Of a stretch of DNA of 12,231 nucleotides, positions 128 through 12,218 are shown piece by piece (within the stretch, counting starts at the first letter, position 1; every line of letters starts with the position of its first letter). Source of the DNA: an uncultured Thermococci archaeon (GTDB lineage Archaea > Methanobacteriota_B > Thermococci > Thermococcales > Thermococcaceae). Under the pieces are notes generated by a model. It was not told the origin of the DNA. It saw only the letters and a program-made list of their open reading frames with translations, and did no database searches. A program made the translations under genes and the position numbers. The DNA is taken from positions 1-12,231 of the forward strand of contig CAZTOS010000066.1 of assembly GCA_964615185.1 (NCBI GenBank), read 5' to 3'.

Positions 128-262
128 ATGGAGAAGCTTGATGTGTTTTCTCTTCAGAGGAAGCTTGAGCATGTGCAGAGAAGAATCCTGGAGCTGAAGA
201 GAGAGGAAGCAAGATTGGTCAGGCTTTTGAAGCAACAACAGAAGAGGGTGAGGGTTGCATGA
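128..262 (+). CDS. Small basic coiled-coil protein, 44 aa (not in the ORF track)
   Basis: RBS GGAGGG at 116-121, ATG at 128. Translates to MEKLDVFSLQRKLEHVQRRILELKREEARLVRLLKQQQKRVRVA. The stop overlaps the next start as ATGA (259-262). Confidence 0.8.
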   Translation: MEKLDVFSLQRKLEHVQRRILELKREEARLVRLLKQQQKRVRVA

Positions 263-618
263 AGGGCAAGGGTATTGTTCAGCTGATTCTCTTTGTTCTG
301 ATAGTGGCTTTCTTTGGTTATGTTGCTTGGGACAGCATAACGAAAGAAGCAGCATTTTTTGGGACTATCGGTGGGCTTATCATGCATTGGGCTTTGACAA
401 ATAAGGGGAATAAGAATGTGATTTACTTCAAGCCGCTCACGGCTGGCTGGAGAGTGCTGATTTACGATATACTGTTACTAACATGGCTCATTGCACTCTT
501 TCAGCAGGCTGGAGACATTAGTGCTTTTCTAAGCTCCTTGATGGCTTTGAATGAGAAAACTGCTTTGATTGCCGCTCTTGTTGGTGGGATTGTAACTGAT
601 TACAGCATAGGGGGGTGA
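259..618 (+). CDS. Hypothetical integral membrane protein, 119 aa, about 3-4 TM helices
   Basis: Hydrophobic segments throughout, GGTGAGG RBS upstream, ATGA coupling to the 44-aa ORF. Confidence 0.85.
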   Translation: MKGKGIVQLILFVLIVAFFGYVAWDSITKEAAFFGTIGGLIMHWALTNKGNKNVIYFKPLTAGWRVLIYDILLLTWLIALFQQAGDISAFLSSLMALNEKTALIAALVGGIVTDYSIGG

Positions 619-622
619 GGAA

Positions 623-2497
623 ATGAAAAGGGCTTTAGGTGTTATTTTGGGTTTGTTAGTGCTTTTTGGTTTGGCGTTTGAAGCAAAGACAGTAATAGCA
701 GTAAATGGGGACGGCATGGGTTTTGATTTTAGAGAAACAAGCGATACCAGTGCCATTCACGTTGGAATGATTGTAAAGGAAGGAGGAGGGATTTCAGTTG
801 GGTATGATACGGATAAATCAGCGGCTTTCATTAAAGTCTATGATAGTAACAGCGTTGCTATTGATCCGTCCTCGGGTTCTGGTTACGTGGATTGGACATT
901 AAACAATACGGAGGAGGTTAAAGCGAAGTTCATGGTTTCTGGAGGTTCGCCGGGTTCAAGAAAGTTCCATGTGGTTGGCTTTTGGGTTTTGCTTGATGAT
1001 GGAAGGAAGTTCGTTATTGAATTTACTGATTATGGAACATTAAGCATTCATGGGCTTTCAGCGGATCAGATTGTCTCTTATTCGTTCTTTAACATTACAA
1101 GAGGCGTATGGGTTGAGAGGACGTTTAACCTGAGGGAATTACTTGAGAATAAGGGCGTTGAGCTTGGAAGTGCGAAAATCAAAGCTGTTAGAATGGTTGG
1201 TGGTGCAAAAGCTGACGATAGCACTGAATACATTTATTTCCAATACCTGTTACCAGCTACTTATAATGTTCAATTCTCACTAAAAGACGCCCTGAGCGGT
1301 CAGCCTCTCACGGGCGTAACGGTCAAGGACACGGATGGCACTTTTTTAGGCACTATTGACGATGGAGAAAGCTTAGAACTCACTAAGGGCACTCATACTT
1401 TAACTTTCGAAAAGCAGGGCTATTGGAGCACTTCAATCACAATTGACGTTCAGGGTGACATGAATGTTAGTGTTGAGCTTTATCCTGATTCTGCTGCTTT
1501 CATGTTCAAGAACTTCCCAAGCTCGATTGAAGTTTATGAAAACTCTATTTATGAGCTAACGTTCACACTAAGTCCAATTTCAACCCAAGCAACTTACAAC
1601 ACCTACCTGAGCCTTTCAGGGCTTACAGATGTCATAGAAGTAAGGAAAGATGGACAGCTTGTTTCTCCCGAATCAGGAAAATACTATTTAGGGGACATTT
1701 CCGCAGACACTCAAATCACGATCAAATTTAAGGTCACAACAGTTGGAACCAAAGCATTCTCGATAATTCTGACCTCAAATGATGCCATAATGAGTAAGAC
1801 GTACACCACAAGCAAACAAGTGACTTATGAGGTTGTTCCCCTACCATTCAGCATTCAGCTTCCAGACTGGACAGTTGGTGAAAACTCCCTTAGAATTGCA
1901 GAGAGTAGCGGCCAAGACATGGTATTAACCCTTAGCCTCAAAGATTCTGAAGGAAACGAAGTCTGGAGTGATTCCTACAGCTTTGGGCCCTATGAGTCTC
2001 ACGAGTTTACAGTGGGCATTCCAAAGGAAGGCGTTTACACTCTTGAGATTCAGTTCTCTGGAACTACGGCAATTTTTGATATTAACGTTAATCCTCCAAT
2101 TCAATTACTCACAGATAGCATTACAGTTGGGAAAGGTGACGTTGGAGCAATTCAGCTTCTTGTTAAGAATCCTTCAAGCCTCACAAAATATTACGAGGTT
2201 GTTTTAACTGGTGGATTCATTGAGGGAAACATTACAAAGGCAATTGCAGTTGCTCCAGCAAGTGAGAAGACCGTTGAAATAGCTTTTCAGGTTCCAAAGA
2301 ACCTCACTTTTGATGCCTATGATTTAACTGTTGAGGTTTATGAAGGTGATGACTTGATTTACAAAGACATTGTGCATGCTGTAATTGACAATTCTGGCTT
2401 CAGTTTGCCAATAGGCTCTGGAGGCTCAACGCTTTCATTAGCTCTTGGTGCCTTAGTCCTAATTGGTGGAATCATCTATGTTCTAAGAAGGAGGTGA
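623..2497 (+). CDS. Large surface protein, 624 aa: signal peptide, N-terminal beta domain, PEGA/carboxypeptidase-regulatory-like domain, Ig-like domains, C-terminal TM anchor (t26-5p-like)
   Basis: N-terminal MKR plus hydrophobic stretch; 'LKDALSGQPLTGVTV...GTHTLTFEKQGYW' PEGA-like signature; beta-rich remainder; C-terminal TM followed by RRR; GGGGGTGA RBS. Confidence 0.85.
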   Translation: MKRALGVILGLLVLFGLAFEAKTVIAVNGDGMGFDFRETSDTSAIHVGMIVKEGGGISVGYDTDKSAAFIKVYDSNSVAIDPSSGSGYVDWTLNNTEEVKAKFMVSGGSPGSRKFHVVGFWVLLDDGRKFVIEFTDYGTLSIHGLSADQIVSYSFFNITRGVWVERTFNLRELLENKGVELGSAKIKAVRMVGGAKADDSTEYIYFQYLLPATYNVQFSLKDALSGQPLTGVTVKDTDGTFLGTIDDGESLELTKGTHTLTFEKQGYWSTSITIDVQGDMNVSVELYPDSAAFMFKNFPSSIEVYENSIYELTFTLSPISTQATYNTYLSLSGLTDVIEVRKDGQLVSPESGKYYLGDISADTQITIKFKVTTVGTKAFSIILTSNDAIMSKTYTTSKQVTYEVVPLPFSIQLPDWTVGENSLRIAESSGQDMVLTLSLKDSEGNEVWSDSYSFGPYESHEFTVGIPKEGVYTLEIQFSGTTAIFDINVNPPIQLLTDSITVGKGDVGAIQLLVKNPSSLTKYYEVVLTGGFIEGNITKAIAVAPASEKTVEIAFQVPKNLTFDAYDLTVEVYEGDDLIYKDIVHAVIDNSGFSLPIGSGGSTLSLALGALVLIGGIIYVLRRR

Positions 2498-2501
2498 AAG
2501 A

Positions 2502-4634
2502 GTGAAGAAAGTTATTGCTTTTGCTTTCATCTTTATGCTTTTCTTTGCTCCAACGGCAACGGCATTCAGCTTTGGCGACATTACAAAGAAAGCATCATCA
2601 ACATTTGAGAAAATTAAGGATGCCGTAAAAGGAGCTGGTGCTGGAGCCGTTATTGGGGGTGCTGTTGGGGCTATAAGTGGTTTTATAGTTGGAGGCCCTC
2701 CAGGAGCACTTGCTGGAGCAAAGCTTGGAGCTGCAGTTGGTGCGATAGTTGGAGGTTCAATTGGAGCAATATTTGGAGGTGATGAAGATAATACCATTTC
2801 TGGCTCATTTAAGGCTGAGCGTTATGCAAATCAGACAACCCTCACAACTGATGAGGATTTGCTTGAGAACAAGCAAATTGTTCAAGAAGCAAATCAACAG
2901 GCTTATCAAAAGATTGCTGAGCTGAATGCAAAGCTGAGAAGCGATCTAACTGCTTATGACATTACAGAGACTGGAGCGACTGGTGATTTATGGGCCAAGG
3001 TTTTTGGTCCCGAAAAGATTTATGGATTTTCAGCATTTCCAGTGCAGATTAAAGTTTTCACAAAAGAAAGCCCAATCCCATTTTCGGTTGTCCATATAAG
3101 ATCCGTTAAGGTTTATCTGAAAGATGAGGATGGCAACATTTTCTGGACAAGAACATGGGATTATGGAACAGGATCAGAAGGCTTGAATGGGGAATCAGCA
3201 GTTTATTCAACAATTTTGAAAGTTCCGGATCCCTTTGTTTACCAAGTCGAAAATGCCATCAACACAGGAGCAATCTCGAAGAGCCTGATCGAGAGCATTT
3301 TCAATGCGAGCACAAAGGCTTGGGAAATCCATGTTGATATTGATGCTTATAGAGAAATGTATCAGAGCACTCCAGCCTCAAGCGCCGATGATTGCCAAGC
3401 CCAAGGAGGCAAGTGGGACTCTCAAACAAATACTTGTTATGTCTTTGTCAAAAATGTTGAGATAGACTATCATGTTGAGACCACAAGCGCCTGGAGGCAC
3501 GTGACGAGGGCAAAGGACGTTGCCCTCCTGGATGAGGGCATGTATGCAAGTTTGCCAATTAAGTTCCTCCAGACAGATGAAGCCAGCAAATGGGCCCTTT
3601 ATCAGGAGAAGTTTGCTGGAGCCCTCTCAAACTTCATAATCCTTACCTATGCAACTCCAGTGCACGTAATGGGCTCAACAGCGGATTATAAATTCTTCAT
3701 TGCTCCAAATCCAGGATACTTTGATCCTTTGAATGTCGCATTCAGTGACGATTTCAGATTTGCATCAGTGAGAGTTTACAAGGACGGGCATTGGGAGCTG
3801 GCTGACAGTATAAGGGGAGATTTGGGAACGTTATCCGACGACTCAAGTGTTGATAAAGCCCTTAATGTTAGATATACAAGTGGAGATGATGTTCTAACTT
3901 ACAGGAGCTTTGGACTTGTGTTGTTCACCATAACCAGAGATGATGGGCAACAGATTAAGGTTTGGCTTGTTACAGAGCCTGATGTTTCAGTCTTGCAAAA
4001 TACGAGAGTTGTTTTAGATGATAATCAAGTTGAAATGCTTGCTCAAGTTGCAAGCGATAACCAGATTTCTGAAGATGAAAGAGAGAAGATAATCCAAACT
4101 GCAAACACTCTTATTAGCGGGCTTAGGGAGAAGATTGATCAAGCTGAGCAGTTAAAGACTAAGGCAGAAAATATGGGCAATTCTCAAGCAAAAGACTATG
4201 CAGAAAAGGCAATTTGGGCTTATAACGAGGCAATTAAGGCTTTAGAGAAAGCTAAGGATACGGACGATTCTCAAATGTTCCTTAATTGGTTAAATGTTGC
4301 AAAGAAGTTTGAGCAGGCCGGTGATTTCTACACTAATGCAGCTGACAAGGCCCTCTATAATGAAATTGAACAGGCTGAATTGGATGCCAAAGCAGCAGAG
4401 GATCTCGTGAATCTTGCAAATGAGTATAAGCCCGGCTTCAGCATTAGCAACTTACTAAATGGTAACATTGACAAGGAAACGCTTGTCATTATCATAGTCG
4501 GCTTAGTTGCTGCTTTTGTAGTGAGAATGATTGCAGGGAATGCTGCAGCTGCTGTTGTAATCATCTTGTTAGTGCTTTACTTGTTTGGTTCGGCTTATTT
4601 GAGCCAGATTTTGGATAAATTAAAGTTCTGGTAA
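2502..4634 (+). CDS. Large membrane-anchored protein, 710 aa: signal peptide, glycine-zipper hairpin, beta-rich domains, helical bundle, two C-terminal TM helices (t26-6p-like)
   Basis: GTG start after GGAGGTGA; Gly/Ala-rich hydrophobic aa 44-93; Ala/Glu/Lys-rich helical region near the C-terminus; two terminal hydrophobic helices. Confidence 0.85.
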   Translation: MKKVIAFAFIFMLFFAPTATAFSFGDITKKASSTFEKIKDAVKGAGAGAVIGGAVGAISGFIVGGPPGALAGAKLGAAVGAIVGGSIGAIFGGDEDNTISGSFKAERYANQTTLTTDEDLLENKQIVQEANQQAYQKIAELNAKLRSDLTAYDITETGATGDLWAKVFGPEKIYGFSAFPVQIKVFTKESPIPFSVVHIRSVKVYLKDEDGNIFWTRTWDYGTGSEGLNGESAVYSTILKVPDPFVYQVENAINTGAISKSLIESIFNASTKAWEIHVDIDAYREMYQSTPASSADDCQAQGGKWDSQTNTCYVFVKNVEIDYHVETTSAWRHVTRAKDVALLDEGMYASLPIKFLQTDEASKWALYQEKFAGALSNFIILTYATPVHVMGSTADYKFFIAPNPGYFDPLNVAFSDDFRFASVRVYKDGHWELADSIRGDLGTLSDDSSVDKALNVRYTSGDDVLTYRSFGLVLFTITRDDGQQIKVWLVTEPDVSVLQNTRVVLDDNQVEMLAQVASDNQISEDEREKIIQTANTLISGLREKIDQAEQLKTKAENMGNSQAKDYAEKAIWAYNEAIKALEKAKDTDDSQMFLNWLNVAKKFEQAGDFYTNAADKALYNEIEQAELDAKAAEDLVNLANEYKPGFSISNLLNGNIDKETLVIIIVGLVAAFVVRMIAGNAAAAVVIILLVLYLFGSAYLSQILDKLKFW

Positions 4635-4647
4635 GGAGGTGGTAGGA

Positions 4648-5178
4648 TTGGGTGATAAGAAGGAGGAGAAAAAGCCAAGTTTTGGAGAAAAGGCAGGGAA
4701 CTACTTCCTTAACAAAATTGGCTTGAGGTTGATAATAACAGCAATTATGTCGCTTATTGCATGGTATGCTTCAAGTAAAAACGTAACAATAGCCCAATTC
4801 AACGCTGCCTACGCTTCAATTCCCTTTTCAGTTATTCTCCTTGCAATGGTCTTCGACTATGGATTAGACACAGGCAAACTCTACAACAGAATGCTCGGTA
4901 GAGGCAAAAATCCACTTTCAAAGCTTGCTTTTGCTATTGGATCGGTGACAGTGTTCTTCTTGCTCTTCACGTGGCTTGTAGCTGGAACTGTAACTTTGAA
5001 CCTTTCTTTACTCCAGCCAGAAAACATTGTTGCAGCTGGCATTGTTGCGTTGGTAGTGCTTATACCAAACACTGGTACAAGTGAATGGCTATTCTGGCTT
5101 TGGATTGCGACCCAAATTGCCACGGGTGGATCTTACCTAGTCATTTTACCAGCAGCCATTGGAGGTGTCCTAATATGA
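4648..5178 (+). CDS. Multi-pass membrane protein, paralog A (about 176 aa)
   Basis: The track's GTG at 4639 lies inside the RBS GGAGGTGG (4635-4642); the in-frame TTG at 4648 is properly spaced. About five hydrophobic segments. Confidence 0.82.
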   Translation: MGDKKEEKKPSFGEKAGNYFLNKIGLRLIITAIMSLIAWYASSKNVTIAQFNAAYASIPFSVILLAMVFDYGLDTGKLYNRMLGRGKNPLSKLAFAIGSVTVFFLLFTWLVAGTVTLNLSLLQPENIVAAGIVALVVLIPNTGTSEWLFWLWIATQIATGGSYLVILPAAIGGVLI

Positions 5179-5693
5179 AGCCAATGGAACACTTAAAGCA
5201 GACCAATTATTGGATAAAGATTTTTGCAGTTGCATTAGTTGGAGGATTTCTGCTGAAATGGGCTGTAGGGCAAAACACTACTATAAACGAGTATCTTGAG
5301 ACCATTGCAAAAACAAACATTGCAGTTATTTTAGGCATTGAGCTCTTTGACAAAGTTGCAGACAGACTTGATTATACCTCATGGGCTAATGCAATTTATC
5401 AAAAAGTCGGAGGAAAGGGAGATACCAGTTGGCTTGGCGGTCTCTTACTCGGAGGAATAGCATTCTTTGCAGTCCTCTTCGTAATGGCCGGAACGATAAG
5501 TCTTACAGTTTCAACATATACTCCAGGAGTTCTCTTAGCAGCAATGACTTATGCTCTCTACATCGTGGCACCAGAGACAGGAAATGCCGAATTGATACTA
5601 ATCCTCTGGCTTATTGCCCAAGTTGCTACTGGTGGAGCATACCTCAAAGATGCCATCAACGTGCTTACGTTATTCAAAACGTTCAGCAGGTGA
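5175..5693 (+). CDS. Multi-pass membrane protein, paralog B (172 aa)
   Basis: Start revised to ATG 5175 (RBS GGAGGTG at 5161-5167, ATGA overlap with the previous stop). Shares C-terminal motifs with the upstream gene. Confidence 0.85.
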   Translation: MKPMEHLKQTNYWIKIFAVALVGGFLLKWAVGQNTTINEYLETIAKTNIAVILGIELFDKVADRLDYTSWANAIYQKVGGKGDTSWLGGLLLGGIAFFAVLFVMAGTISLTVSTYTPGVLLAAMTYALYIVAPETGNAELILILWLIAQVATGGAYLKDAINVLTLFKTFSR

Positions 5694-5699
5694 TCAACA

Positions 5700-6041
5700 A
5701 TGCTCGGCAGGGTTGCAGCAGCTCTCGTTGTTTACATTCTTTGCGTTTTCCATTGGCAGGACAGTATGACTGCAATAGGTCAGTTTTTGGGTTTGAGTGG
5801 CTTTTGGGCTTTATTCGTCCCCTCAGCCCTCATAGGGCTGTCAGTTTACAGGATAGCAGATTTGGACAATTGGGGAGTTTGGGATGCCGCAGCAATGCTC
5901 ACAATCGGGAGCTTTGCCATGTTGGCAATAACAAACAATCCTCAAGCAACAGTGTTTGAGCTCGTGAAAGGTGTTGTCAGCTTTTCAGTTGCGGCAATTC
6001 TCGCAGCCTTAACACTAAAGAGAGGTGGTTCAAGTGGTTGA
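5700..6041 (+). CDS. Hypothetical membrane protein, 113 aa, about 4 TM helices
   Basis: AGGTGA RBS overlapping the previous stop; almost entirely hydrophobic. Confidence 0.82.
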   Translation: MLGRVAAALVVYILCVFHWQDSMTAIGQFLGLSGFWALFVPSALIGLSVYRIADLDNWGVWDAAAMLTIGSFAMLAITNNPQATVFELVKGVVSFSVAAILAALTLKRGGSSG

Positions 6042-6279
6042 TGTTAATGGAGCAATTGACGCCTTTAAAGGAGTTGCAACAAGCCATCCCTACCTTGCCC
6101 TTGCAATCCTGCTCTTCATCATTGGAGCATTAATCAGAGGAAAAGCAAGCTTAGTGTTTTACATCCTTGGAGGTTTGGCGCTCTTGAAAGAGTTTTCGTT
6201 ATTTGATGTGCTTGTTAGCTTCCTCAAAGAAGTTCCAAACTATGTTCAAACCCTATTAAGCGTATTTGGAGGTGGATGA
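6034..6279 (+). CDS. Small hydrophobic helical-hairpin membrane protein, 81 aa
   Basis: The track's GTG at 6025 is within the RBS GAGGTGG; in-frame GTG at 6034 preferred. Two hydrophobic helices split by 'RGK', then an amphipathic tail. Confidence 0.8.
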   Translation: MVDVNGAIDAFKGVATSHPYLALAILLFIIGALIRGKASLVFYILGGLALLKEFSLFDVLVSFLKEVPNYVQTLLSVFGGG

Positions 6280-6282
6280 AGA

Positions 6283-7086
6283 ATGAGAAAGAAGGAAAGA
6301 CAGTTAATAACGGTTGGTTTGGTTATTTTATTTGCGGCCATTGCGTATTGGGCCTATGCTAAGCCAAATATTGGCTTCATTGACTTAAGCGATTGGCTTA
6401 ACAAGAACGAGACAAACGACAACACAACTTATCAGCTCGCCATTGAGAACCTACAAGCTGCAGTTCTTGAAAGCGGGCATGTTGAAGTTACCTTCACCTT
6501 ATCAAACGTTGAGCACTTCAACATTAGTGAGGTAAAAGTTCTCTATGCACTCAACATTGCAAACATTGAGAACGCAACATTCACTGAATTGAGTACAACA
6601 GTCGAGAACGGGACCTACAAGGCCGAAATTCCAAGCAGCTTCGGTGATGTGGTTTACTACAAGGTCAAAGTGCTTTATGACGTGAATAAGACCCTTGAGA
6701 GTGAAGTTAAGAGCCTGACAGTTTCAGACACAGTAGCTCCAACGGTCTCTAACATAACTGTTTCATATAACAGCACTACCGGTAACGCCACATTCACAAT
6801 CAACGCCAGCGATAACGACGCAATTGATCACATCGTCTTGTTCTATGCAATCACCGCAGACGGCAACCTAACCAACGTGACCTTCAGCAATGTTACCCTC
6901 ACCACAAGCCCATACGAGATTACTTTGACAATTGACGAGAACGTTACAGATACTACGTACTACTACGTTGACTTCTACATTGAAGCTTATGACCTGAGCG
7001 GCAATTCAGTAAGATTGCCAGCCAACGACACGTTTGAATTCTACGCCAACAAGACTGCAAGCTTAGTATTCCCACAGACCGGTTGA
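6283..7086 (+). CDS. N-terminally anchored surface glycoprotein with two Ig-like domains, 267 aa
   Basis: N-terminal basic residues plus TM; 'DTVAPTV' and 'AYDLSGN' Ig-like motifs; 16 N-X-S/T sequons by hand count; GGAGGTGG RBS. Confidence 0.85.
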   Translation: MRKKERQLITVGLVILFAAIAYWAYAKPNIGFIDLSDWLNKNETNDNTTYQLAIENLQAAVLESGHVEVTFTLSNVEHFNISEVKVLYALNIANIENATFTELSTTVENGTYKAEIPSSFGDVVYYKVKVLYDVNKTLESEVKSLTVSDTVAPTVSNITVSYNSTTGNATFTINASDNDAIDHIVLFYAITADGNLTNVTFSNVTLTTSPYEITLTIDENVTDTTYYYVDFYIEAYDLSGNSVRLPANDTFEFYANKTASLVFPQTG

Positions 7087-7129
7087 GGAGGGCTGAGTTT
7101 TGAAGCCCTCCCACTCTAATCCTTCTTTT
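7087..7129 (+). terminator. Hairpin followed by a pyrimidine tract; possible attenuator or terminator, or an RBS-sequestering structure
   Basis: GGAGGGCT (7087-7094) pairs with AGCCCTCC (7104-7111) around a 9-nt loop, followed by CTCTAATCCTTCTTTT. Confidence 0.55.
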
Positions 7130-7579
7130 GGACGGGTGATAGCAAAGATTTTCGCCATAGCTAGCTTAATTTTTTTGCTTTACTTCGCTCATTCGACATT
7201 CGCCGAGAACGAGCTTCAAAAGAGGCTCTATGAGCTCGGTTATCCAACTGAAGGCTTCATACTTGTGAACAACACAATGAAGTTTGCAGATGGGCACATT
7301 GTGCGCTTTGAAGGAAACTATGTTGAGACTTACCCAATAACAGCCCAAGAAGCCTTGAACAGGTTGAACAATTATCTTGCAGAGTATAATCTCAAGCTCA
7401 AGAAGTATGACATGAAAATTGAGCCCGAAATCGAGAGTATGGATGAAAAAGAAGAAAATGGCAAGCTGTATTGGGTTTTTGAGCTCTACATCAAGAAAGG
7501 CTCCTCGAAATTCTTTGCGGGTTTGGCTTATGTGGAGCGTAAGGAGGGCTTGATCAAGATTAGGGGATTGCTGGATTGA
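7100..7579 (+). CDS. Membrane-anchored protein with a PepSY-like C-terminal domain, 159 aa (alternative start GTG 7136)
   Basis: N-terminal TM. 'PITAQEALNRLNNYL...LYWVFEL...AYVERKEGLI' resembles the PepSY helix-plus-strands pattern. Confidence 0.75.
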   Translation: MKPSHSNPSFGRVIAKIFAIASLIFLLYFAHSTFAENELQKRLYELGYPTEGFILVNNTMKFADGHIVRFEGNYVETYPITAQEALNRLNNYLAEYNLKLKKYDMKIEPEIESMDEKEENGKLYWVFELYIKKGSSKFFAGLAYVERKEGLIKIRGLLD

Positions 7580-7589
7580 GGTGAGGAGA

Positions 7590-7778
7590 ATGAGTATTTT
7601 GAAGAATGCGGCTAAGATTTTTGTAATCGTGACAATTGCATATTTCTTACTTGCAAAATTCCTCGTAATAGGCTTCATTGGTGACATCATAGACCTTATG
7701 GTTGCAATGGTAATTGGTGGAGCTTCTGCAGTAGTTTACATCATCTTGGCTGGAATTGCAAAATTGTTCCGGAGGTGA
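7590..7778 (+). CDS. Small two-TM membrane protein, 62 aa
   Basis: RBS GAGGTGAGG at 7578-7586 favours ATG 7590; two hydrophobic helices with basic termini. Confidence 0.8.
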   Translation: MSILKNAAKIFVIVTIAYFLLAKFLVIGFIGDIIDLMVAMVIGGASAVVYIILAGIAKLFRR

Positions 7779-7782
7779 GAAA

Positions 7783-8223
7783 ATGAGGAAAGTTTTAGGT
7801 ATATTATTGCTTGTCGGCTTAATCTTAGCATCATCTGGCTGCATTAGCTTTAGCGACAATGCAGTAATCATCAGCCTTGGGAATCAAACCTACACAATCC
7901 CGTTAAACCAAACCACCAATCAAACGAGCAACAAAACCGTAAACCAAGAGTTGTACAACTACAGTTATGAAGTGCAAGTCGGTGAGGAGCTTTACATTCG
8001 AGAACTGAACTTTACGATAAGACCAGATTACGACATCTCAAAGCAGAAATTCTTCTTTGCAACTCCCCAAGGGGTTTATTGGGAACCAATGAACATTACA
8101 GTTGAAAACGTTACAATTCTCGGCGAGAGCTACTTCGCAGGAACAAGCATTTACATTTCTAAAATCACGATTGAGAGTCCAAGAGAGCTCAGCATAGAGA
8201 TTAGAGAGGTGAACAGCTCATGA
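7783..8223 (+). CDS. Putative lipoprotein or surface glycoprotein, 146 aa
   Basis: RBS GGAGGTGA at 7771-7778 favours ATG 7783; MRK-hydrophobic-'ASSGCI' lipobox-like signal; 9 sequons by hand count. Confidence 0.82.
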   Translation: MRKVLGILLLVGLILASSGCISFSDNAVIISLGNQTYTIPLNQTTNQTSNKTVNQELYNYSYEVQVGEELYIRELNFTIRPDYDISKQKFFFATPQGVYWEPMNITVENVTILGESYFAGTSIYISKITIESPRELSIEIREVNSS

Positions 8224-9056
8224 GGCAAAGCCGAATTCTCCCCCTATTATTCATTATATGTATATTACTAACACCAGCCATGGCAGTGTACACGTGGACT
8301 GGACAGCTTAACGTGGGCAATGTTGTTTACATTAATGACATGCAAGTTAAGATTGATAGGGACAAGAACAAGAATATCACAGCTGCTATTATCCTATACA
8401 AAGGAGAGACCTTTCTGGTGAAAGAGGGCGAGAGTGCAGAGATTGATGACATTGAAATCAGCGTCAACTCGTTCAAAGACTATGCAGTTCTGAGCGTTTC
8501 AAGTGACAAGCCATTCGAAATTAATTTCGATAACAAGACTACAGGTAATGAAAATTTGAAAAAGCAGATTAGCAACCTCAAAGAAGAAAACACGAAGCTA
8601 AGGCAGGAGAATGAAAAGCTAAAGGGTGAGAATCAGCGGTTGAAGGATCAGATTAACAAGTTGACTGATGAGAATAAACAGTTGAAGAGGAGAATAAGCG
8701 AGCTTGAAAAGCAAAAACCTGCAAGCACAAAAGAGCTTGAAGCAAGATTGTTGAATTTAACGAAAGAGAACAGGAAGCTTAAGATGCAACTTGCAAACCT
8801 AACGAGAAAGTACAATGAGATAAAGGCAAAGGCTGAGTTTCTTGAAGCCCAAAATGAAGAATACAGGTCAATTCTTCAAAAACTCATAGAGGAAGAGGCT
8901 CAAAAGAGCAAGCAGAATTACGTTGAGAAGGCAAAGAAAGAGCGCTTAATCGGTTCTATCATCATAAAGAGCCTTATTCTCGGTGGAATTGTTGTTGGGA
9001 TAGTTGGCTATGGGCTTTACAGGAAAAAGAGAAGTTGGGAGTTAGGTGGACTCTAA
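8220..9056 (+). CDS. Signal peptide, beta domain, long coiled coil and C-terminal TM protein, 278 aa (t26-13p-like)
   Basis: ATGA coupling; repeated 'ENxxL' heptads; C-terminal TM followed by RKKR. Confidence 0.88.
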   Translation: MRQSRILPLLFIICILLTPAMAVYTWTGQLNVGNVVYINDMQVKIDRDKNKNITAAIILYKGETFLVKEGESAEIDDIEISVNSFKDYAVLSVSSDKPFEINFDNKTTGNENLKKQISNLKEENTKLRQENEKLKGENQRLKDQINKLTDENKQLKRRISELEKQKPASTKELEARLLNLTKENRKLKMQLANLTRKYNEIKAKAEFLEAQNEEYRSILQKLIEEEAQKSKQNYVEKAKKERLIGSIIIKSLILGGIVVGIVGYGLYRKKRSWELGGL

Positions 9057-9136
9057 CGTAAGGAGTTCCCAAAGGAGGGATTTGGGATGATAGAAGTCTG
9101 AGAAGCTTGCTATGAACCCTTACGTTAGACAATAAG

Positions 9137-9146
9137 TTTTTTGTTT
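9137..9146 (+). terminator. Possible oligo-T terminator after the membrane operon
   Basis: TTTTTTGTTT in the first sizeable intergenic gap since position 128. Confidence 0.4.
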
Positions 9147-9169
9147 AAAAAATTCGGGAGGCATAGGGA

Positions 9170-10510
9170 GTGGAGAGTATAAAGATAAAGAACGCAATCC
9201 TCATATCAGGATCAAAGCCAGAAGAAGAGCCTGGAGTCTATATTGGTAGAAGAGCCGATGATGACCTCAAAGAACGCATTTATCTAACCTTTAAACCAGG
9301 AGATGCAAACCACATTCTCATCCTTGGTGAAAGCGGATATGGGAAAACAACGTTGCTGAGAGCGCTAGCTGAAAGCATCTTTGACTACTACCGATCACAA
9401 GGACAGAAAGTCATTATAATTCTCTTTGAGCGTAAAATGGACATCACAAAAATCAACAAGCTTAGAGAGTTTTACGAAAGCGTTGAGGAATATTACGGAG
9501 AAGAATATGCAAAAAGTCAGTATCCATTCCTAAGTCATTACCTACAATTAGTGGAGAATGATGAGAACCTTGGCATGATTGGAGACTTCTCAATGGGCTG
9601 GCCTAACTACATGCTTGAAAGCGTTTACCTAAGCAAGAAAAAGCAATACAAACTAAGTTCCTGGCACGACATTGAGCCGGACTACTACCCAACGACCCGC
9701 TTCATATTTAGGCCAACAAGAGTATTGGAGGCAATACAAATCGACAATGGATACAAGACAATAGCCAAAGAAGCAAAAATAAACCTCAAAAATGTTGACT
9801 TTGAGACAATAGCGAGAAGAGCCCATCTAACGCCAGGCACCAGATATGGTAGAATATTCATGAAGTATTGGGACATCAAAAAGATAAGAGACCCTGACAA
9901 ACTATACCAGCAATTCCTCTACGACTACAAGGATTCATTCAAATACGATGACACCATGAACGCAACAAAACTCAGCATCCAAACAGCCGTTGAGCTCCTA
10001 AAGCTTGACTCACTCTTCATCTCAGGCAATCAAAAGGACTTTGTTCATGAGATAACTGCAGACAGGATTAATATCATAGACTTCTCAACAAATTCAGATC
10101 TCAACAGTGCTGAAGAAGCCCTCGTCTTTGAGCATACTGTCAAATACGTGACAAGATATGCCCTCCGCAAAAAGATTCCTGTCTTTATAATTATTGATGA
10201 AGTCCACGAACTTTTGGAGCACAGGAGGGGTCGGGAGGCAATTGATGACATTTACAGAATGGGTAGGAGTCTACAAATTACTTTAATTTCTGCAACCCAA
10301 TACCTCTACAGCCTCCCCTCAATGCTGTATATCGGTGCACAACACATCTTTGTGGTTGGAAATTTTGCAAGTAGGAAGGACAAAAAGATACTCGAAGACT
10401 TCATTGGTGAGAAGATAAGAGTTAGAAATCCCGAAAAAGGAAAAGGCATCCTCTTTTTGGGGAAAAGAAAGAAGATTTCTGCTTATTTTCGACCCTCAAA
10501 AACTTTGTAG
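9170..10510 (+). CDS. HerA/FtsK/VirB4-superfamily P-loop ATPase, 446 aa
   Basis: Walker A GESGYGKT (9326-9349) after 'HILIL'; Walker B IIIDE (10187-10201); 'RMGRS' arginine-finger region and 'ISATQ' motif typical of FtsK-HerA ATPases; GTG start with GGGAGG RBS. Confidence 0.9.
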   Translation: MESIKIKNAILISGSKPEEEPGVYIGRRADDDLKERIYLTFKPGDANHILILGESGYGKTTLLRALAESIFDYYRSQGQKVIIILFERKMDITKINKLREFYESVEEYYGEEYAKSQYPFLSHYLQLVENDENLGMIGDFSMGWPNYMLESVYLSKKKQYKLSSWHDIEPDYYPTTRFIFRPTRVLEAIQIDNGYKTIAKEAKINLKNVDFETIARRAHLTPGTRYGRIFMKYWDIKKIRDPDKLYQQFLYDYKDSFKYDDTMNATKLSIQTAVELLKLDSLFISGNQKDFVHEITADRINIIDFSTNSDLNSAEEALVFEHTVKYVTRYALRKKIPVFIIIDEVHELLEHRRGREAIDDIYRMGRSLQITLISATQYLYSLPSMLYIGAQHIFVVGNFASRKDKKILEDFIGEKIRVRNPEKGKGILFLGKRKKISAYFRPSKTL

Positions 10511-10521
10511 GAGGTGTTATT

Positions 10522-11271
10522 ATGGGACTGTTTGACAGGTTTAGGAGAAAGGAAAATGAAAAAGTGAGAATTGGAAGGCTGGATCAGATTGATGTGATAC
10601 CTCTGGAAGAAGACATTGAAATACACGAAGACCAAAAAGGCAGAATTTACGATGAACTCCAAAGAGCTCTAATCAAAAGATTAGAAGAGCAGAAAAGGCT
10701 CAATGAGAAAATGGCACAAGTGTATCCCCTTAGACAAAAAGTCATTCTCTGGTTTGACGGCAAGGAGACAAGAATAAAAGGCTATCCAATAGCAATGAGA
10801 AAAGACTTTGATGAATACGTGATCCTCTACCAGGTGAGACCACCAGACTGGTTGGACAACATTTGGTATTCCCTCGGCAGAATACTCGGAAAACAACCAC
10901 CACAAAAGCTCATCAGAGTTCACGAAGAGTTGGTCTTCTTCGGCGAGGAAACCATAACAATCTTCGCCAGAGCCTTCAAGGTGAATCTGATCGGAGAGGA
11001 GGAAGCAATCCCAATTGAACACAATCCCATTGAGGCAGAACTATACATCGTCATGAAACAGTCAAGAGACGCCTGGCGTTCAGCATACATGCACTTAGCA
11101 AGGCAAGTTGCCGCAGCAACAGACTTAGCCCTCAATATTAATCCGAGGGTCAAAGTATATTGGAAGGACAAAACCAAAAACAAGGACAAAGGAACCGAAG
11201 AAGAACACTTTGGAGGTAAAGAAATTAGCTTTGCAGACAATATAATCAGGAGAGAGCTTTATGGTGAATGA
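10522..11271 (+). CDS. Hypothetical soluble protein, 249 aa, with an N-terminal amphipathic helix (t26-15p-like position)
   Basis: GGAGGTG RBS at 10510-10516; begins MGLFDRFRRK; no TM segment. Confidence 0.82.
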   Translation: MGLFDRFRRKENEKVRIGRLDQIDVIPLEEDIEIHEDQKGRIYDELQRALIKRLEEQKRLNEKMAQVYPLRQKVILWFDGKETRIKGYPIAMRKDFDEYVILYQVRPPDWLDNIWYSLGRILGKQPPQKLIRVHEELVFFGEETITIFARAFKVNLIGEEEAIPIEHNPIEAELYIVMKQSRDAWRSAYMHLARQVAAATDLALNINPRVKVYWKDKTKNKDKGTEEEHFGGKEISFADNIIRRELYGE

Positions 11272-11272
11272 C

Positions 11273-11602
11273 ATGGAAGTAGCAGAGCATTTAACCTACG
11301 AAGAGATGATGCTAAAAGCCGAGGAAGAAGCCAAAAACATCAAAACCCGCAAGAGCGTTAAAAGCTCCAAATCCAACAAAACAGATGATGGAAGCAACGA
11401 AACACAGAAAACCCGCATGATCAAAAGCCTAATCAGAGAAGCCTTTGAAGCATTGGCCAACGCATACGACTTGGCCTTCTTGGACGAACAAAGACAAGAA
11501 ATTAGAACAGCTTATAAACTCCTAAAAGCCGCACTACTACAAATAGACGGTGGAAAATACTTGCCAAAACCCGAGAAAAGAAAAGACAAAGAAAAAAGTT
11601 AG
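11273..11602 (+). CDS. Hypothetical charged helical protein, about 109 aa (alternative start ATG 11261)
   Basis: GGTGA RBS at 11263-11267 favours ATG 11273; Lys-rich low-complexity linker and two C-terminal helices. Confidence 0.72.
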   Translation: MEVAEHLTYEEMMLKAEEEAKNIKTRKSVKSSKSNKTDDGSNETQKTRMIKSLIREAFEALANAYDLAFLDEQRQEIRTAYKLLKAALLQIDGGKYLPKPEKRKDKEKS

Positions 11603-11727: not shown

Positions 11728-11949
11728 ATGGGGGCAAATGCTGTTAATATTCTGCTCGAAGATGTGCGTGAGATGAAAAAGAAACTCGAAGAGATGGAAA
11801 TTGAACTCCTCAAGCTCAAAGCTGAGATGTTGGAAGAGGAAGAAATGGATAAAAAAGAAGCCAAAGAGATCATCAGAAGGGCAAAAGAATTGTATGAGAG
11901 CGGAAAAGGATTAACCATTGGAGAATTCAAAAAGGAGCTTGGGCTATGA
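11728..11949 (+). CDS. Putative type II antitoxin (archaeal RelB-like), 73 aa
   Basis: Small acidic helical protein ending 'GKGLTIGEFKKELGL', directly upstream of and ATGA-coupled to a RelE-like toxin; GGTGGTGA RBS. Confidence 0.8.
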   Translation: MGANAVNILLEDVREMKKKLEEMEIELLKLKAEMLEEEEMDKKEAKEIIRRAKELYESGKGLTIGEFKKELGL

Positions 11950-12218
11950 CTTTTCAAGTCATCATTGATCCCAAAGTCCCAAAGAAAGCCAAAAAATACC
12001 TTTCTAAAGCACACCAAAAGAAACTATCTGAGTTTGTTGAAACCCTACAATACGACCCATTCCCACGAAACAAATTCGACCTCAGGAAAATCAAAAGTTT
12101 TGAGAACCTTTACGCCCTCAGACTTGGGAAATATCGAGTTCTCTATGTTATTTTATGGGACAAAAAGGTTATAGTTATTGAAGACATCCTCCCAAGAGAA
12201 AGTGCTTATAAGAGGTGA
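11946..12218 (+). CDS. relE: Type II toxin, RelE/ParE family, 90 aa
   Basis: Basic protein with 'DPFP...LRKIK...YALRLGKYRVLY...VIVIEDILPRESAYK', the RelE pattern including the C-terminal R...Y. Confidence 0.88.
   Translation: MTFQVIIDPKVPKKAKKYLSKAHQKKLSEFVETLQYDPFPRNKFDLRKIKSFENLYALRLGKYRVLYVILWDKKVIVIEDILPRESAYKR

What the first reader, a model, noticed from the sequence alone, without database searches (positions are those of the whole stretch)
128..11602. Twelve-gene membrane module plus a VirB4/HerA-like motor: candidate uncharacterised archaeal DNA-transfer or enveloped-particle machine
Seen: all twelve genes from 259 to 9056 encode TM or signal-bearing proteins, tightly coupled, followed by an FtsK-HerA-type ATPase and two soluble proteins. 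Known: pT26-2-family elements carry a conserved membrane module with an ATPase whose mechanism is unresolved, and FtsK-HerA/VirB4 ATPases drive conjugation, Ced/Ted DNA transfer and viral packaging. Inference: the parts list (adhesin-like protein, possible membrane-inserting protein, paired channel subunits, pilin-sized hairpins, glycosylated surface protein, coiled-coil stalk, motor) describes a complete export apparatus. It could be a non-canonical conjugation system or a plasmid-vesicle/pleomorphic-virion system. I see no recognisable capsid protein or relaxase.
Basis: partly seen in the sequence, partly recalled or inferred. Interest (0 to 1): 0.85.

Follow-up and report, generated by a model that had tools for sequence, protein, structure and literature searches.

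The report
Known pT26-2 plasmid core module
This is another copy of an already published block of membrane genes plus a DNA-pump-type enzyme, carried by mobile elements of deep-sea hot-vent archaea and thought to move the element between cells by a route nobody has yet shown.

Summary
The block is real, but it is the published core module of the Thermococcales/Methanococcales pT26-2 plasmid family. All seven defining genes (t26-5, 6, 7, 11, 13, 14, 15) plus t26-4, 8, 9, 10 occur in order at 32-65% identity. The scan reported the same module earlier on other DNA (e1-2623887). Soler 2010 and Badel 2019 already proposed conjugation or vesicle transfer; neither is shown. The contig holds only the module and a RelE-type toxin-antitoxin pair; integrase, att and Rep are not on it. 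The tandem t26-7 pair is common (17 of 27 genomes). No pilin, VirB6, capsid or pleolipovirus-spike match was found (inconclusive). Possibly new: pAMT11/TKV1-type elements share t26-13-like, t26-4-like and ATPase homologues, and their parts list parallels the vesicle plasmid pR1SE. Two elements without a detected t26-5 or t26-6 carry t26-7-like genes; one lies in another order of the class, beside a HerA-type ATPase and an integrase. Mechanism: self-encoded membrane particle about 0.45, contact-dependent pump about 0.37. New member of a known kind; interest 0.35.

The parts
128..262 (+). 44-aa basic, coiled-coil-like protein at the position of t26-3; role unknown
   Evidence: ORF; homologues in 4 of 26 loci; no family hit
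259..618 (+). t26-4p orthologue, small membrane protein with a conserved TNKG motif
623..2497 (+). t26-5p orthologue (core): signal peptide, variable N-terminal region, PEGA/carboxypeptidase-regulatory Ig-like repeats, C-terminal anchor; adhesin-like (inferred)
   Evidence: 64% over residues 216-584; PF13715 7e-6, below cut-off; hydrophobic segments 7-25 and 603-621
2502..4634 (+). t26-6p orthologue (core): signal peptide, glycine-zipper hydrophobic hairpin, two Ig-like domains, helical bundle, C-terminal two-helix anchor
4639..5178 (+). t26-7p paralogue A (core), 4-5 membrane helices; likely start TTG 4648
5175..5693 (+). t26-7p paralogue B
   Evidence: 38% to t26-7p; A and B copies form two supported clades
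5700..6041 (+). t26-8p orthologue, 3-4 membrane helices
   Evidence: 65%; pMEFER01 homologue E 1e-12
6025..6279 (+). t26-9p orthologue, ~81-aa hydrophobic hairpin flanked by amphipathic helices; likely start GTG 6034
   Evidence: 65%; Atlas cluster 'T26-9p family' at 0.94; no pilin hit
6283..7086 (+). t26-10p orthologue, N-anchored Ig-like surface protein, likely heavily glycosylated
   Evidence: 51%; 16 sequons, 10-16 in the 23 family rows
7100..7579 (+). t26-11p orthologue (core), N-anchored protein
   Evidence: 53%
7590..7778 (+). 62-aa two-helix membrane protein, accessory
   Evidence: homologues in 2 of 26 loci; no hit in pT26-2 or pGE2
7783..8223 (+). 146-aa secreted or anchored sequon-rich protein, accessory
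   Evidence: 47% to a pGE2 protein, none in pT26-2; 12 distinct homologues among 26 loci; 9 sequons
8220..9056 (+). t26-13p orthologue (core): signal peptide, beta-domain, long coiled-coil stalk, C-terminal anchor
   Evidence: 37%; beta-domain homologous to the gene beside the ATPase of pAMT11-type elements, hhalign 99.2%
9170..10510 (+). t26-14p orthologue (core), soluble FtsK-HerA-superfamily ATPase, 446 aa, no membrane segment
   Evidence: 39%; motifs; best solved relatives are HerA proteins, E 1.2e-4
10522..11271 (+). t26-15p orthologue (core), soluble, fold unknown
   Evidence: 42%; no usable Atlas hit
11261..11602 (+). 113-aa soluble protein at the position of t26-16; orthology not shown
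   Evidence: no BLAST hit to t26-16p; no family hit
11728..12218 (+). Type II toxin-antitoxin pair (73-aa acidic partner plus 90-aa RelE/ParE-like protein), start of the variable region
   Evidence: PF05016 4.6e-7, over cut-off; PHROG RelE-like 2e-10; the antitoxin role is inferred from position

Best explanation
Shown (about 0.97): this is the conserved core module of a pT26-2-family integrative plasmid of a Thermococcales archaeon. Inferred (about 0.85): the module spreads the element between cells. Inferred route, narrowly preferred: a self-encoded, capsid-less membrane particle. After excision, the small membrane proteins (t26-4, the two t26-7 copies, t26-8, t26-9) form a membrane patch. 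The single HerA-type ATPase t26-14, with soluble t26-15, loads the circular DNA at that patch, which buds off. The particle carries anchored surface proteins: t26-5 as adhesin, t26-13 as a stalked head spanning the S-layer, and t26-10 and the 146-aa protein as a glycan coat. t26-6 then inserts its exposed glycine-zipper hairpin into the recipient membrane to deliver the DNA. No step of this route is demonstrated.
For: Identity. The module has one short ATPase without a membrane segment, whereas the proven archaeal conjugative plasmids carry both VirB4 and VirD4 homologues (PMC12857230 passages). pAMT11/TKV1-type elements share the t26-13 head (99.2%), t26-4 (96.4%) and ATPase (88.9%, 325 columns) with this module. 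They also encode a subtilisin, a lectin and an S-layer-like protein. That parallels the core of the vesicle plasmid pR1SE: subtilisin, S-layer-like, SH3/PKD-like protein, VirB4/packaging ATPase (PMC10818511 Table 1); parts list only. Badel 2019 noted the pR1SE-like organisation. The t26-6 layout (signal, hydrophobic hairpin, ectodomain, C-terminal anchor) beside a small multi-pass protein, with an NTPase downstream, resembles the pleolipovirus block by analogy (PMC10919331 passages). A distant t26-7 pair sits in an archaeal element with virus-like content: dCTP deaminase, nuclease, many small ORFs (L068).
Against: Soler 2010 saw no virus particles and did not detect pT26-2-family DNA or proteins in vesicles (data not shown). 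No viral particles were detected after partial loss of TKV2 (PMC8155482). t26-6 has its own fold (2WB7), and no pleolipovirus spike was listed in three fold searches. Its poorly modelled N-terminal 101 residues were not tested. No sequence link to pR1SE could be tested because the record is not held, and Badel reports no direct sequence conservation. The ATPase's best curated-family hits are CedB and VirB4, which fits conjugation equally well. Integrase, att and Rep were not seen for this copy.
Confidence: 0.45

Rival explanations
1. Contact-dependent, relaxase-free conjugation. t26-5 and t26-13 hold the mating pair; t26-7/8/4 form the channel; t26-9 acts as a pilin-like subunit; t26-6 bridges to the recipient membrane; the single ATPase pumps DNA, like CedB or Streptomyces TraB (TraB recalled).
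For: ATPase closest to CedB (9 of 22 family members match), VirB4 and HerA. Five conserved small membrane proteins. No particles found. CedA1/TedC/VirB2 pilins and CedA/VirB6 can lack recognisable sequence similarity (PMC9905601 passages), and no archaeal conjugative plasmid has a recognised relaxase.
Against: Only one ATPase in the conserved module. The t26-9 profile finds no pilin in PDB, Pfam or PHROGs. The t26-7 model lists no VirB6/CedA-like chain among the top 50 of 48,161 (inconclusive).
Confidence: 0.37
2. A protein-secretion or cell-interaction system (FtsK-type ATPase plus a pore-forming glycine-zipper protein) that benefits the host or excludes competitors and does not carry DNA.
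For: Core kept in integrated elements that lost Rep; TKV2/TKV3 deletions slow growth (Badel discussion, citing work I did not read). Weak T7SS EccC hits. Gly-zipper hits in t26-6.
Against: The module sits on free plasmids and integrase-flanked elements across two orders. No conserved effector-immunity pair was noticed. A mobile element with no other recognisable transfer genes needs a means of spread.
Confidence: 0.12
3. Ordinary chromosomal envelope genes.
For: No integrase or att site on this 12.2-kb contig; GC 41.8% vs 40.6% for the genome.
Against: Patchy presence in 27 of 99 genomes; orthologues on three free plasmids; integrase upstream in 19 of 26 relatives.
Confidence: 0.02

Closest known systems
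pT26-2 plasmid family core module (pT26-2, pGE2, TKV2/TKV3, pMEFER01; PMC2926602, PMC6972569)
   Same: All seven core genes and t26-4, 8, 9, 10 in the same order, 32-65% identity; t26-6 matches the solved structure 2WB7.
   Different: Two tandem t26-7 copies (one in pT26-2 and pGE2, but tandem in 17 of 27 genomes). t26-12 is replaced by two other membrane genes. A RelE-type pair follows. Integrase and Rep are not on the contig.
pAMT11/TKV1 family of Thermococcus (one member in this same genome, G000:C13)
   Same: SSV-type integrase; one-strand membrane module; homologous t26-13 head next to a related ATPase; t26-4-like gene in 3 chromosomal members.
   Different: No t26-5, 6, 7, 8, 9, 11 or 15 homologue detected. 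Has a subtilisin, a ConA lectin and an S-layer-like protein. No t26-4-like hit among pAMT11's annotated proteins.
pR1SE / apHPV vesicle-disseminated plasmids of haloarchaea (PMC10818511)
   Same: Capsid-less element with a conserved cluster of surface and membrane proteins and one VirB4/packaging-type ATPase.
   Different: No sequence homology reported; not testable here. Particles are proven for pR1SE, not for pT26-2.
Ced/Ted DNA-import systems and archaeal conjugative plasmids pNOB8 and pT33-3
   Same: VirB4/HerA-like ATPase plus membrane proteins; no recognised relaxase.
   Different: No detected VirB2/CedA1 or VirB6/CedA homologue; one ATPase instead of VirB4 plus VirD4.
Pleolipoviridae / 'Thalassapleoviridae'
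   Same: Small integral membrane protein, large anchored spike-like protein and NTPase in one block.
   Different: t26-6 has the 2WB7 fold; the hallmark V-shaped fusogen was not listed in fold searches.

Membership tests
pT26-2 family | Seven core genes t26-5, 6, 7, 11, 13, 14, 15 | tested here: met
   7 of 7 by BLASTP, E 3e-13 or better; definition from PMC6972569
pT26-2 family | Conserved synteny t26-4 to t26-15 | tested here: met
   11 of 12 genes in order; t26-12 not found
pT26-2 family | Host in Thermococcales or Methanococcales | tested here: met
   Closest named relatives are Thermococcus/Pyrococcus records; same-family genomes carry the module
pT26-2 family | Type I (SSV) integrase split at a tRNA att site | tested here: inconclusive
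   The contig ends 258 nt upstream of t26-4. The only t26-1-like hit in the assembly belongs to another element on C13. In run X1 the DNA continues 1.4 kb upstream and 5.7 kb downstream, but those letters were not available.
pT26-2 family | Replication gene (MCM or t26-22-like) in the variable region; often lost | tested here: inconclusive
   No t26-22 hit in the assembly; variable region not on the contig
Ced/Ted or T4SS-type conjugation | VirB4/CedB-like ATPase | tested here: inconclusive
   Same superfamily; CedB 43 bits vs cut-off 700, VirB4 25 vs 643
Ced/Ted or T4SS-type conjugation | VirB2/CedA1-fold pilin | tested here: inconclusive
   t26-9 profile: no pilin in PDB at E<=10, Pfam or PHROGs; not folded
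Ced/Ted or T4SS-type conjugation | VirB6/CedA-like channel | tested here: inconclusive
Archaeal conjugative plasmids (pNOB8, pT33-3) | Two ATPases, VirB4 and VirD4 | tested here: not met
   One P-loop ATPase among 18 window proteins; met only if a second lies in the unseen variable region
Pleolipoviridae | V-shaped VP4/VP5 fusogen fold | tested here: inconclusive
   Not listed for the 710-aa t26-6 model in BFVD, PDB-Foldseek or VIA-wide; best viral TM by query 0.17 among 50 rows shown; t26-5 not folded
Capsid-encoding viruses | Recognisable major capsid protein | tested here: inconclusive
   No capsid family in Pfam/PHROGs for 18 of 18 proteins; only 2 proteins folded
pR1SE/apHPV | Homologues of ORF6, 8, 17, 21, 23, 24 | not testable with these tools
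   pR1SE record not held
pR1SE/apHPV | Infectious plasmid-containing vesicles | not testable with these tools
   Needs culture; negative unpublished observation in PMC2926602

The most novel reading that the evidence does not exclude
pT26-2, pAMT11/TKV1 and elements from another order of the same class (L109) and from an unassigned archaeal contig (L068) belong to one ancient, mosaic superfamily of capsid-less archaeal elements. They spread in self-built enveloped particles, with t26-7 as the matrix-like membrane protein and t26-6 as a membrane fusogen whose fold is unrelated to known viral fusogens.
Probability: 0.25. Interest if true: 0.8.

Novelty: new member of a known kind. Interest (0 to 1): 0.35.

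Why it matters
As a locus it adds little: dozens of such elements are catalogued. The open question behind it is real. The family is present in about a quarter of Thermococcales genomes, yet its mode of transfer has been unresolved since 2010. The links found here (shared motor-side genes with pAMT11-type elements, t26-7-like genes outside the two known orders) widen the family and favour testing particles under induced expression. If t26-6 proved to be a fusogen, or the module a one-ATPase conjugation machine, either would be a new mechanism of archaeal gene transfer and a possible genetic tool for hyperthermophiles.

Tried and rejected
1) IMG/VR pattern scans with the ATPase, t26-6, t26-7, P0097 and one L068 protein found no relative in 5 of 5 scans. 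This is weak: exact patterns are used, and apHPVs were also absent from IMG/VR. tblastn of the ATPase against 50,697 phage records gave no match.
2) Complex prediction of t26-14 with t26-15 gave no answer, score 0.00; not evidence either way.
3) The idea that t26-9 is homologous to the C-terminal hairpin of t26-6 was rejected (hhalign 0.9%). t26-7 vs t26-4 and vs t26-8 were also negative.
4) The tandem t26-7 pair as a novelty of this locus was rejected (17 of 27 genomes).
5) The C13 integrase as the missing end of this element was rejected: it heads a pAMT11-type element at a tRNA-Lys att copy.
6) Fold searches of t26-6 returned only generic Ig/arrestin-like and helical-bundle matches besides 2WB7; t26-7 gave nothing under E 0.001 in BFVD. 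Absence is not proof of a new fold.
7) Atlas searches: t26-9 found only its own cluster above 0.9; t26-15 gave no usable hit.
8) Sequencing runs: no RNA holder listed; no circularising joint in 4 runs laid as contigs.
9) P0093's contig was not found in the metagenome scan; the unseen 16 kb of the L068 contig could not be reached.
10) The profile E-values for C13, and for the pAMT11-type t26-4-like genes, are inflated because L057 was in the training set; I rely, built without it.
11) L109's 499-aa and 241-aa proteins sit where t26-13 and t26-15 would, but homology is not supported (hhalign 4.8% and 0.8%). Its ATPase scores 4.2% against t26-14 and 70.7% against the pAMT11-type profile.
12) My notebook said 22 of 26 loci have an upstream integrase; a recount gives 19 of 26.
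13) The pT33-3 paper was not held.
Full report
1. Observation. The window is the whole contig G000:C66 (12,231 bases) of a 138-contig, 95.6%-complete genome. The twelve genes from 259 to 9056 are real, on one strand and separated by -17 to +13 nt. All 12 have a hydrophobic segment; the ATPase and the next two proteins have none. About 32% of the genome's crudely called ORFs (800 of 2480) pass the same test, and other runs of 8-10 exist, so the run is unusual but not unique. Two proteins are sequon-rich beyond 500 of 500 shuffles. A RelE/ParE-type toxin-antitoxin pair closes the contig.

2. Identity. Distant BLASTN found two plasmids, pGE2 and pT26-2. Protein comparison maps the window onto pT26-2 in order: t26-4 (51%), 5 (64%), 6 (41%), 7 twice (32%, 38%), 8 (65%), 9 (65%), 10 (51%), 11 (53%), 13 (37%), 14 (39%) and 15 (42%). 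The 710-aa protein carries all three t26-6p Pfam domains and matches PDB 2WB7 by sequence and by model. Badel 2019 defines the family by seven core genes within a 12-gene conserved region; all seven are here. The t26-6 domain occurs in 27 of 99 genomes of the order, in none of the 34 further genomes of the phylum, and in 0 of 14 controls. I fetched 26 stretches covering 26 of the 28 matched loci (all but the window's own and one on a short contig). They keep the gene order, and 19 of 26 show an SSV-type integrase fragment upstream. The Methanocaldococcus plasmid pMEFER01 has homologues of the seven core genes and also of t26-4 and t26-8. For this copy the integrase, att site and Rep are not on the contig, and the assembly's only t26-1-like gene belongs to another element. 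In the probable source run the DNA continues on both sides at flat depth. Close variants lie in three further runs from three other studies.

3. The duplicated t26-7. It is tandem in 17 of 27 genomes, single in 9, and split over two contigs in 1. First and second copies form separate supported clades (100/100 and 99/99; 38 rows, none dropped; long-branch warnings given), which suggests one old duplication. Its model (pLDDT 85) matches nothing beyond generic helical bundles.

4. Links beyond the family. (a) The same genome holds a second element on C13, beginning at a 49-nt copy of a tRNA-Lys 3' end with an SSV-type integrase fragment. It is of the pAMT11/TKV1 family: 16 of its 18 tested proteins hit pAMT11. 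Profiles built without it show that such elements (C13, L110, L111, and pAMT11 for two of the genes) share the t26-13 head domain (hhalign 99.2%, E 1e-19, 97 columns), t26-4 (96.4%) and the ATPase (88.9%, 325 columns) with the pT26-2 module. The other 5 of 8 pAMT11-type families tested scored under 3% against all 11 profiles. Badel states that the 12 proteins have no significant similarity outside the family. (b) A t26-7 profile found only 36 representatives among 1.84 billion proteins, the weakest five at E 1e-6 to 5e-4. One lies on L068, a 30%-GC metagenome contig of which I saw 19 of 35.6 kb. It has a tandem t26-7-like pair (hhalign 97.5% and 95.9%), large anchored surface proteins, an archaeal pilin-like gene, dCTP deaminase and a nuclease, and no t26-5/6/14 hit in the part seen. 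A database labels a near-identical protein as from a bacterial MAG; the archaeal pilin motif suggests mis-binning (inference). (c) G120, in the same class but another order, has a 16.6-kb contig (L109) with a tyrosine integrase, a DUF87 ATPase, several anchored proteins (one homologous to L068's, E 6e-24) and a t26-7-like domain. That last match is modest: E 3.2e-6 per genome, hhalign 76.6% over 41 columns. Two other hits at E 0.006 were not examined. Badel found no family member in the sister lineages then available. L109 is not a member by the seven-gene test, but it shares a part. I did not find links (a)-(c) in the passages I read from searches for pT26-2 (14 papers listed), T26-6p (2), pAMT11/TKV1 (30 of 39 listed), TKV2/TKV3 with vesicles (10 of 11) and Methanofastidiosa elements (10 of 51). 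Gonnet 2011 and the supplements of Badel 2019 and of the 2026 virome preprint were not seen and may already contain them.

5. Mechanism. Shown: membrane topology predictions, an intact FtsK-HerA-type ATPase, and conservation as a unit on mobile elements. Inferred: self-transfer. Two routes remain nearly level. For particles: a single short ATPase, whereas pNOB8-type plasmids and pT33-3 carry VirB4 plus VirD4; the bridge to pAMT11-type elements, whose subtilisin, S-layer-like protein, t26-13-like protein and ATPase parallel the pR1SE core (parts list only); the fusogen-like layout of t26-6; and glycoprotein-like surface proteins. Against particles: Soler 2010 detected no particles and no family DNA or protein in vesicles; the 2026 virome preprint cites the family among plasmids and, in the parts I read, does not name it among 19 virus families; and the t26-6 fold matched no pleolipovirus spike. 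For conjugation: the ATPase's best family hits are CedB and VirB4; there are many small membrane proteins; and archaeal pilins and channels are known to escape sequence searches. Against conjugation: no VirB2- or VirB6-like match (inconclusive). I put particles at 0.45, conjugation at 0.37, protein secretion or host benefit at 0.12, and housekeeping at 0.02.

6. Papers, as seen. PMC6972569: outline, parts 1-3 of 10, section 13, part 1 of 2 of section 14, and passages. PMC12934983: passages and parts 2-3 of 8. Passages only: PMC2926602, bioRxiv 2026.09.28.752058 (calls the family 'particularly abundant'), bioRxiv 2025.12.08.692931, PMC13107129, PMC9905601, PMC12857230, PMC8155482, PMC10919331, PMC10818511. 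Keller 2009, Gonnet 2011, Tagashira 2013, Erdmann 2017 and Catchpole 2023 were not read; they are known only through those papers. No supplements were opened.

7. Verdict. Observation confirmed; interpretation partly supported and largely already in print. New member of a known family with an open mechanism; modest added value from the cross-family links. Interest 0.35.

Noticed in passing
G000:C13 10864 onward (L057:864-19901); att partner tRNA-Lys(ttt) at G000:C94 5504-5581: A second integrated element of the pAMT11/TKV1 family with its own membrane module (ConA lectin, subtilisin, S-layer-like protein, HerA-type ATPase, t26-4-like and t26-13-like genes). Similar elements lie in L110 and L111.
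   Followed up: partly
L109 (G120:C33) 2598-16502: Element from another order of the same class: tyrosine integrase, DUF87 ATPase, anchored surface proteins and a t26-7-like domain; shares a protein with L068.
   Followed up: partly
L068 87-12376: Low-GC archaeal virus-like region with a tandem t26-7-like pair, 736- and 1281-aa anchored proteins, a type IV pilin-like gene and dCTP deaminase; a database labels it as bacterial.
   Followed up: partly
window 11728-12218: RelE/ParE-type toxin-antitoxin pair directly after the core module, possibly stabilising the element.
   Followed up: partly
L067 (pMEFER01) 4732-6681: The Methanocaldococcus t26-6 lacks the long glycine zipper. Its N-terminus looks like a class III (prepilin-type) signal followed by a hydrophobic stretch (motif recalled, not tested).
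   Followed up: no
window 623-1270: The N-terminal third of t26-5 has no BLAST match to pT26-2 or pGE2 while the rest is 59-64% identical: a variable tip, as expected of a host-range determinant.
   Followed up: no
G000:C16 22434-34381: Another cluster with mobile-element features (resolvase similar to t26-31, ATPase-like genes, a possible nucleotidyltransferase pair); link to the window unknown.
   Followed up: no
L038 (t26-13) and L050 (t26-4): Two relative loci show a truncated t26-13 or a split t26-4, so some copies may be decaying.
   Followed up: no
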